Source of the DNA: Escherichia coli
GTDB lineage: Bacteria; Pseudomonadota; Gammaproteobacteria; Enterobacterales; Enterobacteriaceae
Strand: one strand, 5' to 3'
Assembly: GCF_003334815.1 (NCBI RefSeq)
Contig: NZ_QOWO01000026.1
Length of the DNA: 62,123 nt
Shown here: piece after piece, positions 58,485 to 58,500 of the stretch
Layout of the letters: every line of letters begins with the position of its first letter
Numbering within the stretch: position 1 is the first letter of the stretch
The notes under the pieces: model-generated
The model's database searches: none
What the model was told of the DNA's origin: nothing
The model's input: only the letters and a program-made list of their open reading frames with translations
Program-made: the position numbers and the translations under genes

Positions 58485-58500
58485 GCAAGATTTACGCCAG
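58485..58500 (-). promoter_or_regulatory. Candidate sigma-54 (-24/-12) promoter upstream of xdhA
   Basis: Minus strand reads CTGGCG-TAAAT-CTTGC (GG-N10-GC spacing correct) ~100 nt upstream of the xdhA start. Confidence 0.3.

What the first reader, a model, noticed from the sequence alone, without database searches (positions are those of the whole stretch)
58485..58500. Candidate sigma-54 promoter in front of xdhABC
The minus strand reads CTGGCGTAAATCTTGC, with GG and GC in the spacing of a -24/-12 promoter, about 100 nt upstream of xdhA. The sigma-54 enhancer-binding activator gene ygeV is transcribed convergently and ends just beyond xdhC, suggesting local sigma-54 control of purine-catabolic genes.
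Basis: partly seen in the sequence, partly recalled or inferred. Interest (0 to 1): 0.4.

Follow-up and report, generated by a model that had tools for sequence, protein, structure and literature searches.

The report
Known sigma-54 promoter of xdhABC
The motif is the real, already published sigma-54 promoter of the E. coli xanthine dehydrogenase operon xdhABC, so the finding is correct but not new; the only possible addition is a conserved upstream repeat that may be the docking site of its activator.

Summary
The minus strand at 58500-58485 reads CTGGCGTAAATCTTGC (TGGCGT-N5-TTGC, GG-N10-GC). It lies in the actS(ygeR)-xdhA intergenic region of E. coli and points at xdhA.

It is already known. 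Zhao et al. 2010 listed exactly this sequence as the xdhA sigma-54 promoter: 4.9-fold up on sigma-54 overexpression, 2.1-fold down in an rpoN deletion. Bonocora et al. 2015 found a sigma-54 ChIP-seq peak on it (OS29, motif CTGGCGTAAATCTTGCC) and marked it "experimentally confirmed in EcoCyc".

What I added:
- TGGCGT and TTGC are invariant in 30 orthologous xdhA upstream regions from 12 genera, while the spacer and flanks drift.
- A conserved dyad, TATCA-N3-TGA / TCA-N3-TGATA (58631-58598), sits about 115 bp upstream of the -24 element in 29 of 30 sequences.
- Its 12-mer TATCAATATGAG also lies upstream of the ChIP-verified sigma-54 sites of ygeW and ygfT. This makes it a candidate shared enhancer for the neighbouring activator YgeV, which has a sigma-54 AAA+ domain, GAFTGA and HTH_8.

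YgeV acting at xdhA is inferred, not shown.

Novelty: already known. Interest: low.

The parts
58484..58500 (-). Sigma-54 -24/-12 promoter element CTGGCGTAAATCTTGCC (GG at 58498-58497, GC at 58486-58485); this is xdhAp.
   Evidence: Sequence. PWM score 12.9 bits, rank 7 in the window. TGGCGT and TTGC are invariant in 30 of 30 orthologous upstream regions. The same sequence is published as ChIP-seq peak OS29 and in Zhao 2010 Table 2.
58473..58473 (-). Predicted transcription start: 12 nt downstream of the C of the GC, or 19 nt downstream of the motif centre.
   Evidence: Inferred using the convention of Bonocora et al.. No mapped 5' end was found.
58619..58631 (.). Candidate enhancer (UAS) unit 1, TATCACATTGAtt, centred about -152 from the predicted start.
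   Evidence: TATCA and TGA are at least 90% conserved across 30 orthologs. Part of the dyad found in every ortholog.
58598..58610 (.). Candidate enhancer (UAS) unit 2, acTCATATTGATA (reverse complement TATCAATATGAGt), centred about -131.
   Evidence: Conserved. The exact 12-mer TATCAATATGAG recurs upstream of the ygeW and ygfT sigma-54 sites.
58533..58551 (-). Conserved box between enhancer and promoter: a T-tract followed by CATCACA. Its role is unknown. Options are a weak CRP-like site (TTTTA-N6-TCACA), a third activator half-site, or a bend.
   Evidence: TCACA is at least 90% conserved. It matches the CRP consensus with 2 mismatches. No IHF consensus is present.
58434..58440 (-). Shine-Dalgarno sequence GAGGGGA for the xdhA start codon at ATG 58428.
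   Evidence: SD and ATG are conserved in orthologs.
56131..58428 (-). xdhA, xanthine dehydrogenase molybdenum-binding subunit, 765 aa.
55242..56120 (-). xdhB, FAD-binding subunit.
54766..55245 (-). xdhC, iron-sulfur subunit.
54736..54759 (.). GC-rich palindromic hairpin between the convergent stop codons of ygeV and xdhC; terminator-like.
52948..54726 (+). ygeV (isrR), a bacterial enhancer-binding protein and the candidate activator.
   Evidence: Pfam hits: PAS 162-205, Sigma54_activat 272-439 (E 2e-70), HTH_8 548-587. GAFTGA at 347-352.
52563..52579 (-). Sister sigma-54 promoter of ygeW, CTGGCACACTTATTGTT. TATCA-N3-TGA units lie at 52780-52792 and 52751-52763.
   Evidence: Published as ChIP-seq peak OS30.
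42747..42763 (-). Sister sigma-54 promoter of ygfK, GTGGTGCGATTGTTGCT. The perfect palindrome TATCATTATGATA lies at 42932-42944.
   Evidence: Published as ChIP-seq peak OS31.
27740..27756 (+). Sister sigma-54 site of ygfT, TATGCCCGTTTATTGCA. TCTCATATTGATA lies at 27562-27574.
   Evidence: Published as ChIP-seq peak OS32.

Best explanation
This is xdhAp, the sigma-54 (RpoN) -24/-12 promoter of the xdhABC operon of E. coli.

Proposed mechanism:
1. RNA polymerase carrying sigma-54 binds TGGCGT-N5-TTGC (58499-58485) as a closed complex. It cannot open the DNA on its own.
2. An enhancer-binding AAA+ ATPase bound upstream remodels the complex. It most likely binds the conserved pair of TATCA-N3-TGA palindromic units centred at about -152 and -131 (58631-58598).
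3. DNA looping brings the activator to the polymerase, and transcription starts near 58473. This gives a leader of about 45 nt ahead of the ATG at 58428.
4. The most likely activator is YgeV (IsrR). It is encoded convergently just past xdhC, and the same upstream motif precedes the sigma-54 promoters of ygeW, ygfK and ygfT in the same purine/urate-degradation cluster.

Status of each step:
- Shown in the literature: sigma-54 occupies the site in vivo, and xdhA mRNA responds to sigma-54 dosage.
- Shown here: conservation of the promoter core and of the upstream dyad, and the fixed spacing between them.
- Inferred: the exact start site, the dyad being the enhancer, and YgeV being the activator.

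My confidence differs by step: about 0.93 that this is a genuine sigma-54 promoter, about 0.65 to 0.7 that YgeV acts through the dyad.
For: Sequence and context. The spacing is canonical. P is about 1.5e-5 per position, or 0.006 expected in this intergenic region. The orientation and distance to xdhA are right.

Published binding and expression data.
- Sigma-54 ChIP-seq peak OS29: fold-above-threshold 11, motif CTGGCGTAAATCTTGCC, EcoCyc status 'confirmed'.
- The ChIP-seq peak falls inside one of the intervals (2997800-2998599) listed in a Bonocora supplementary comparison table whose header I did not read.
- The window is collinear with MG1655: all four published motif centres (xdhA, ygeW, ygfK, ygfT) map exactly onto the window.
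- xdhA is 4.9-fold up after sigma-54 induction and 2.1-fold down in an rpoN deletion, with this same sequence listed.

Phylogenetic footprint.
- In 29 of 29 orthologous loci from 12 genera (XdhA identity 70-99%), the best PWM hit in the 450 nt upstream is this site, 55-83 nt before the start codon.
- The core positions are 100% conserved, against 47% mean identity over the intergenic region, and the spacer varies.

Alternatives that found no support. There is no convincing sigma-70 promoter (1 weak match against 1.2 expected) and no Rfam element in the leader.

Enhancer.
- The dyad is present in 30 of 30 sequences. Its centre is 113.5-117.5 nt from TGGC in 29 of them and 135.5 nt in Hafnia, a shift of two helical turns.
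- The dyad pattern matches nowhere else in 1.13 Mb of the fetched loci.
- The half-site TATCANNNTGA occurs 12 times in the window against 1.7 expected, and 8 of the 12 lie upstream of the four sigma-54 promoters.
- The exact 12-mer TATCAATATGAG occurs 3 times, upstream of xdhA, ygeW and ygfT.
- At ygeW the unit TATCAATATGAGA, or TATCAAATTGATA in Buttiauxella, stays at -233 to -235 in all 19 orthologs.

Activator.
- YgeV has the Sigma54_activat and HTH_8 domains and the GAFTGA motif.
- ygeV lies next to xdhABC in most orthologous loci.
- xdhABC and ygeWXY belong to the 'YgeV iModulon'.
Against: - The site departs from the consensus: GT instead of AC after TGGC, and C instead of A/T after TTGC. 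It scores below all 22 training sites.
- Six other sites in the window score as high or higher and are not in the published ChIP tables. Sequence alone would not prove function.
- The in vitro genomic SELEX list for the RpoN holoenzyme includes the ygeV/ygeW spacer but not the xdhA promoter.
- I found no mapped transcription start and no single-gene reporter or in vitro transcription assay for xdhA. The 'confirmed' label appears to rest on high-throughput data.
- Bonocora et al. consider most of the other Zhao 2010 candidates to be false positives.
- Against YgeV specifically: Kluyvera, Hafnia and Enterobacillus keep the promoter and the dyad but have no ygeV within 10 kb. Pluralibacter has a second enhancer-binding protein gene directly upstream of xdhA. 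No YgeV binding data exist in the searchable library.
- The TATCA(A) core also resembles the IHF consensus WATCAA and Fur-box hexamers (the Fur resemblance is from my own knowledge).
Confidence: 0.85

Rival explanations
1. It is a genuine sigma-54 promoter, but it is activated by an enhancer-binding protein other than YgeV, for example NtrC under nitrogen limitation or another regulator. The conserved dyad would then bind that protein, or an architectural or repressor protein such as IHF or Fur.
For: Kluyvera, Hafnia and Enterobacillus conserve the promoter and dyad without a ygeV gene within 10 kb. Pluralibacter has another enhancer-binding protein gene (37% identity to YgeV) immediately upstream of xdhA. 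An NtrC genomic-SELEX peak lies within xdhB-xdhC. Unit 1 matches the IHF consensus with one mismatch. No direct YgeV-DNA data were found.
Against: No NtrC-type TGCACC-N5-GGTGCA site appears in the conserved islands. The same 12-mer sits upstream of ygeW, which is divergent from ygeV, and of ygfT; ygfT expression is reported to depend on ygeV. xdhABC co-varies with the rest of the cluster in the YgeV iModulon. The conserved positions are TCA-N3-TGA, not the TTR arm of the IHF consensus. ygeV may simply lie elsewhere in the genomes that lack it locally, which I could not test.
Confidence: 0.2
2. Sigma-54 holoenzyme binds here but the site is transcriptionally unproductive, a poised or decorative site. 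xdhABC would then be expressed from an unrecognised sigma-70-family promoter.
For: Bonocora et al. stress that sigma-54 binds many sites in an inactive state. The YgeV iModulon is almost never active under laboratory conditions. No mapped start site was found. One weak sigma-70-like match exists at 58732-58704.
Against: xdhA mRNA rises 4.9-fold within minutes of sigma-54 induction and falls in an rpoN deletion. The core is invariant across 12 genera, and an enhancer-like dyad sits at a fixed distance from it. The sigma-70-like match is at chance level (1 against 1.2 expected) and lies upstream of the enhancer.
Confidence: 0.05
3. It is a chance match to the -24/-12 consensus with no function.
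For: Seven sites of equal or better score occur in the 62-kb window, against 1.8 to 3.8 expected by chance. The loose pattern TGGC-N8-TGC is not enriched.
Against: An in vivo ChIP-seq peak is centred on it. TGGCGT and TTGC are 100% conserved in 30 orthologous regions whose mean identity is 47%.
Confidence: 0.01

Closest known systems
xdhAp, the sigma-54 promoter of xdhABC in E. coli K-12 (EcoCyc; Reitzer and Schneider 2001; Zhao et al. 2010; Bonocora et al. 2015, peak OS29)
   Same: It is the same object. The 17-mer CTGGCGTAAATCTTGCC is identical, as are the orientation and the downstream gene. The window coordinates map one-to-one onto the MG1655 coordinates of the published motif centres.
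   Different: Nothing about the promoter element differs. What is added here is conservation across 12 genera, the candidate enhancer dyad, and evidence that the 765-aa start codon is correct, which shortens the leader from 84 nt to about 45 nt.
Neighbouring sigma-54 promoters of ygeW, ygfK and ygfT (Bonocora OS30-OS32), the putative YgeV regulon/iModulon
   Same: All are -24/-12 sites with ChIP-seq peaks in the same purine/urate-degradation cluster. All have TATCA-N3-TGA(TA) units upstream.
   Different: The units lie at about -200 to -235 at ygeW, ygfK and ygfT, but at -131 and -152 at xdhA. ygeW and ygfK have good CRP-consensus sites and ygeW has a PurR-box-like element. xdhA has only a weak CRP-like box.
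glnAp2 with its NtrC enhancer, the textbook enhancer-dependent sigma-54 promoter
   Same: The architecture is alike: a -24/-12 core plus two dyad-symmetric activator sites a few helical turns apart, about 100-150 bp upstream, recognised by an HTH_8 (Fis-type) domain of an AAA+ activator with GAFTGA. This comparison rests on established knowledge of NtrC; the YgeV domains are.
   Different: The recognition sequence differs: TATCA-N3-TGATA here against TGCACC-N5-GGTGCA for NtrC. YgeV has PAS/GAF-like sensory domains rather than a receiver domain, so it is presumably ligand-controlled rather than phosphorylation-controlled. Binding has not been shown.
IHF-assisted sigma-54 promoters (nifH/NifA, Pu/XylR)
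   Same: An enhancer more than 100 bp upstream, with a conserved element between enhancer and core.
   Different: No IHF consensus (one mismatch or fewer) lies between the dyad and the -24 element in the window or in 27 of 29 orthologs. Instead there is a conserved T-tract plus a TCACA box of unknown role.

Membership tests
Sigma-54 (RpoN) dependent -24/-12 promoter | GG and GC doublets exactly 10 nt apart within TGGCAC-N5-TTGCW | tested here: met
   TGGCGT-AAATC-TTGCC at 58499-58484. It departs from the consensus at 3 non-core positions.
Sigma-54 (RpoN) dependent -24/-12 promoter | Matrix score in the range of bona fide sites and rare by chance | tested here: inconclusive
   12.9 bits, P 1.5e-5 per position and 0.006 expected in the intergenic region. 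It is below all 22 training sites (13.5-22.2), and 6 unbound sites in the window score as high or higher. The published PSSM score of 10.9 lies within the range of confirmed sites.
Sigma-54 (RpoN) dependent -24/-12 promoter | Intergenic, oriented toward a downstream gene at leader distance | tested here: met
   The predicted start at 58473 is 45 nt before ATG 58428 of xdhA.
Sigma-54 (RpoN) dependent -24/-12 promoter | Evolutionary conservation of the -24 and -12 elements relative to the flanks | tested here: met
   100% conservation of 10 core positions in 30 sequences from 12 genera, against 47% mean identity for the region.
Sigma-54 (RpoN) dependent -24/-12 promoter | Occupancy by sigma-54 holoenzyme in vivo | not testable with these tools
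   Published: ChIP-seq peak OS29, fold-above-threshold 11. It is absent from the in vitro genomic-SELEX list.
Sigma-54 (RpoN) dependent -24/-12 promoter | rpoN-dependent transcription with a start about 12 nt downstream of the GC | not testable with these tools
   Published microarray: 4.9-fold up on sigma-54 induction, 2.1-fold down in an rpoN deletion. No mapped 5' end was found.
Sigma-54 (RpoN) dependent -24/-12 promoter | Upstream activator (enhancer) sequence and a cognate AAA+ activator with GAFTGA | tested here: met
   A conserved dyad lies about 115 nt upstream of the -24 element. YgeV next door has Sigma54_activat, GAFTGA and HTH_8. That this dyad binds this protein is inferred.
YgeV (IsrR) regulon | Shares a cis-element with the other promoters of the cluster | tested here: met
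   TATCANNNTGA occurs 12 times against 1.7 expected, concentrated upstream of the xdhA, ygeW, ygfK and ygfT promoters. The exact 12-mer is present at three of them and is conserved at ygeW across genera.
YgeV (IsrR) regulon | Co-occurrence of ygeV with the promoter across genomes | tested here: inconclusive
   ygeV is adjacent to xdhABC in most loci that extend far enough. It is absent within 10 kb in Kluyvera (3 loci), Hafnia and Enterobacillus, which still keep the promoter and dyad. The rest of those genomes could not be searched.
YgeV (IsrR) regulon | YgeV-dependent expression and direct YgeV binding | not testable with these tools
   Only indirect evidence exists: iModulon co-variation and a cited ygeV dependence of ygfT. 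No binding data were found.

The most novel reading that the evidence does not exclude
The conserved pair of TATCA-N3-TGA(TA) palindromic units (58631-58598) may be the so far undescribed enhancer recognised by YgeV/IsrR. It is held about 115 bp from the -24 element across 12 genera. Near-identical copies lie upstream of the ygeW, ygfK and ygfT sigma-54 promoters. If this reading is right, it defines a four-promoter YgeV regulon for the anaerobic purine/urate degradation cluster and gives a concrete cis-element with which to look for the inducing signal. I found no description of this motif in the searchable literature, but EcoCyc, RegulonDB, RegPrecise and the subscription papers (Reitzer and Schneider 2001; Iwadate and Kato 2019) could not be consulted.
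Probability: 0.55. Interest if true: 0.4.

Novelty: already known. Interest (0 to 1): 0.15.

Why it matters
The promoter itself adds nothing new. It has been in the literature since 2001-2010, was confirmed by ChIP-seq in 2015, and is listed in EcoCyc.

The surrounding cluster (xdhABC, ygeWXY, ygfK-ssnA, ygfT) has recently become important as the gut-bacterial route for anaerobic urate and purine degradation, which is relevant to gout. A 2025 paper states that its regulation remains poorly understood. A concrete candidate enhancer motif shared by the cluster's four sigma-54 promoters makes YgeV control, and its unknown inducer, directly testable by footprinting and reporter mutagenesis.

Tried and rejected
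- Riboswitch or leader RNA: the Rfam scan of 58200-58950 at E up to 1 found nothing.
- Sigma-70 promoter: one weak match at chance level, located upstream of the enhancer.
- IHF site between enhancer and core: no consensus match with one mismatch or fewer in the window or in 27 of 29 orthologs.
- CRP at the conserved TCACA box: only a 2-mismatch match, and such matches are not enriched in the window (33 against 27 expected). I leave this as a possibility only.
- Generic inverted-repeat finder on the intergenic region: it returned only a lineage-specific pair (58560-58571 / 58591-58602) and missed the degenerate dyad. The first attempt failed because of strand syntax.
- Loose motif count TGGC-N8-TGC: uninformative, 21 against 15 expected.
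- Other high-scoring PWM hits in the window: checked against the Bonocora tables, none listed.
- Papers not held: Reitzer and Schneider 2001 (PMC99035) and Iwadate and Kato 2019. What they say is taken second-hand.
- P. putida xdhA in PMC11997794: a different organism and sequence, so not relevant.

Full report
**Observation.** The GG is at 58498-58497 and the GC at 58486-58485. This is the GG-N10-GC spacing of a -24/-12 promoter (TGGCGT-N5-TTGC, against the consensus TGGCAC-N5-TTGCW).

**Context.**
- The window is E. coli chromosome. The 600 nt around the site match 5412 of 5426 complete E. coli genomes and are annotated as the xdhA-actS(ygeR) intergenic region.
- The gene layout in the window is ygeW 51282-52472 (-), ygeV 52948-54726 (+), xdhC 54766-55245 (-), xdhB 55242-56120 (-), xdhA 56131-58428 (-) and actS from about 58843 (+).
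A GC-rich hairpin at 54736-54759 separates the two stop codons.

**Is it more than chance?**
- I built a 17-nt matrix from 22 other published E. coli sigma-54 sites, leaving out the four sites that lie in this window. The site scores 12.9 bits, with per-position P about 1.5e-5.
- That corresponds to 0.006 expected hits in a 430-nt intergenic region on one strand. The site ranks 7th among 124,000 positions in the window.
- The evidence from sequence alone is respectable but not decisive. Seven sites reach this score where 1.8 to 3.8 are expected, the score is slightly below all the training sites, and the six higher-scoring sites in the window are not among the published ChIP peaks.
- A looser pattern, TGGC-N8-TGC, is not enriched.

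**It is already known.**
- Zhao, Liu and Burgess (NAR 2010, PMC2831329) list b2866 xdhA in their Table 2 with the promoter 'tttcTGGCGTAAATCTTGCCTGctta' at -110 to -93. [quoted passage not shown]
- Bonocora et al. (PLoS Genet 2015, PMC4591121) report ChIP-seq peak OS29: peak centre 2998270, fold-above-threshold 11, motif CTGGCGTAAATCTTGCC, plus strand, gene xdhA, distance 84, PSSM 10.93, and EcoCyc flag C, meaning experimentally confirmed.
- The ChIP-seq peak falls inside one of the intervals (2997800-2998599) listed in a Bonocora supplementary comparison table whose header I did not read.
- Using the xdhA motif centre as the anchor, the window positions of the ygeW, ygfK and ygfT motifs reproduce the published MG1655 motif centres exactly (3004185, 3014001, 3029008). 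The window is therefore collinear with K-12 and the identity of the site is not in doubt.
- Lamoureux et al. 2023 credit Reitzer and Schneider 2001 with sigma-54 promoters upstream of xdhABC and ygeWXY, and place both operons in a 'YgeV iModulon'.

**Independent support obtained here.**
- One scan of representative genomes with XdhA returned 32 loci. They come from Escherichia, Citrobacter, Kluyvera, Atlantibacter, Buttiauxella, Hafnia, Yokenella, Enterobacillus, Klebsiella indica, Pluralibacter and Trabulsiella.
- In all 29 loci that carry upstream DNA, the best matrix hit in the 450 nt before xdhA is the orthologous site, 55-83 nt before the start codon. The next-best hit is far weaker.
- In the alignment, TGGCGT and TTGC are invariant in 30 of 30 sequences. 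The five spacer bases vary (AAATC, AATTC, AGTTA, AAATT, ACATC, ATATC, ACTTC, AAAAA and others), and mean identity to the window across 58429-58700 is only 47%. This is a classical footprint of a -24/-12 element.
- No credible sigma-70 promoter and no Rfam family compete for the region.

**How it most likely works.**
- Sigma-54 holoenzyme forms a closed complex and needs an AAA+ enhancer-binding protein. The alignment shows two further conserved islands.
- The first island is a dyad, TATCAcAATGA-N10-13-TCAtaTTGATA (window 58631-58598). It consists of two imperfect 13-bp palindromes of the type TATCA-N3-TGATA, centred near -152 and -131 from the predicted start at 58473.
- The dyad is present in 30 of 30 sequences. 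Its centre lies 113.5-117.5 nt from TGGC in 29 of them and 135.5 nt in Hafnia, two helical turns more. The same pattern matches nowhere else in 1.13 Mb of the fetched loci.
- Within the window the half-site TATCANNNTGA occurs 12 times against 1.7 expected. Eight of the twelve lie upstream of the four ChIP-verified sigma-54 sites of the cluster: xdhA, ygeW, ygfK and ygfT.
- The exact 12-mer TATCAATATGAG occurs three times, each 130-235 nt upstream of the xdhA, ygeW or ygfT promoter.
- At ygeW the unit TATCAATATGAGA (TATCAAATTGATA in Buttiauxella) keeps its position at -233 to -235 in all 19 orthologs. A second unit lies at about -205 in many of them.
- The protein encoded next door, YgeV, has PAS (162-205), Sigma54_activat (272-439, E 2e-70), an AAA lid and HTH_8 (548-587) domains. 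It also has an intact GAFTGA loop at 347-352.

My model is that YgeV dimers bind the two units, oligomerise, loop to the promoter and open the closed complex. This architecture parallels NtrC at glnAp2 but uses a different recognition sequence.

The steps 'the dyad is the enhancer' and 'YgeV is the activator' are inferences. I put the dyad being the enhancer used by YgeV at about 0.55. I put YgeV being the activator at about 0.65-0.7, and the promoter being genuine at about 0.93.

**Second conserved island and caveats.**
- A T-tract followed by CATCACA (58551-58533, with TCACA at least 90% conserved) lies between the enhancer and the core.
- There is no IHF consensus there. The box matches the CRP consensus with two mismatches (TTTTA-N6-TCACA), which is not significant by itself.
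- However, ygfK has a perfect CRP site at 42826-42841 and ygeW has a 1-mismatch site at 52622-52637. A 2025 paper refers to a native CRP site in the ygeV-ygeW spacer. I leave the role of this box open.

Evidence that tempers the YgeV assignment:
- Kluyvera, Hafnia and Enterobacillus keep the promoter and dyad but have no ygeV within 10 kb.
- Pluralibacter has a second enhancer-binding protein gene directly upstream of xdhA.
- The in vitro genomic-SELEX catalogue of RpoN-holoenzyme sites lists the ygeV/ygeW spacer but not xdhA.
- No mapped start site or YgeV binding experiment turned up in the searchable library.
- The YgeV iModulon is nearly silent in laboratory conditions.
- YgeV has also been renamed IsrR for an indole-related virulence phenotype whose direct targets are unknown.

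**Verdict.** The only possibly new element is the conserved TATCA-N3-TGA dyad as a candidate YgeV enhancer shared by the four sigma-54 promoters of the purine/urate-degradation cluster. That cluster's regulation was described as poorly understood in 2025.

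Noticed in passing
window 58389-58440 (minus strand): xdhA start codon. The ATG at 58428, preceded by the Shine-Dalgarno sequence GAGGGGA, is conserved in all orthologs. The internal Met14, which is the 752-aa start implied by the published distance of 84 nt, is Leu or Lys in Trabulsiella, Buttiauxella, Hafnia and Enterobacillus. The 765-aa form used by PGAP is therefore the likely true start, and the leader is about 45 nt rather than 84 nt.
   Followed up: yes
window 52670-52685 (ygeV-ygeW spacer): A PurR-box-like element, AGCCAAACGTTTTCGT, is conserved across genera upstream of the ygeW sigma-54 promoter. It has 3 mismatches to the palindromic PUR-box consensus. It suggests that PurR feeds into this purine-catabolic cluster.
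   Followed up: partly
window 42826-42841 and 52622-52637: A perfect CRP consensus, TGTGAGTTCATTCACA, lies about 97 nt upstream of the predicted ygfK sigma-54 start. A 1-mismatch CRP site lies upstream of ygeW. CRP sites at sigma-54 promoters are unusual enough to note.
   Followed up: partly
window 50936-50948: A perfect 13-bp palindrome of the same type as the candidate enhancer units, TATCAAGATGATA, lies inside the dpaL (ygeX) coding sequence, upstream of ygeY. It could be an internal enhancer or a chance match.
   Followed up: no
window 7867-7883 (+), 55406-55422 (+), 45224-45240 (+), 53160-53176 (-), 38819-38835 (-), 51556-51572 (-): Six sites score as high as or higher than the xdhA promoter with the sigma-54 matrix, but none is in the published ChIP-seq tables. 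The best is CTGTCGCGATTTTTGCA at 16.4 bits. The site at 55406 lies antisense inside xdhB, roughly 200 bp from a reported NtrC genomic-SELEX peak.
   Followed up: partly
window 58555-58596; loci L002-L005, L015, L024: The segment between the enhancer and the T-tract exists in two haplotypes within Escherichia. In the population, 3143 genomes are at least 99% identical to the window here and 2269 are 95-99% identical. The window's version carries two extra CGTATCA copies. The other version carries TGATAAAAAC, a string that is also conserved in the ygeV-ygeW spacer.
   Followed up: partly
L034 (E. coli APEC-O117H42), locus about 440-1210: An IS1X2 element is inserted in the actS-xdhA intergenic region, about 335 bp or more upstream of the xdhA ATG. 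That places it beyond the candidate enhancer, so the promoter and enhancer appear intact.
   Followed up: partly
L009, L010, L020 (Kluyvera), L016 (Hafnia), L018 (Enterobacillus); L029 8978-9769 (Pluralibacter): In Kluyvera, Hafnia and Enterobacillus, xdhABC has no ygeV within 10 kb but keeps the sigma-54 core and the dyad. In Kluyvera the operon sits next to the end of what looks like mutS (from the translated C-terminus; no tool check). Pluralibacter has an additional enhancer-binding protein gene (37% identity to YgeV) ending just upstream of xdhA.
   Followed up: partly
window 52800-52900 (ygeV-ygeW spacer): Further conserved TGATA/TATCA elements lie 250-335 nt upstream of the ygeW start, including TGATAAAAAC...TTTATCATT and ATGATGATA. 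They suggest a complex, multi-site regulatory region shared by the divergent ygeV and ygeW promoters.
   Followed up: no
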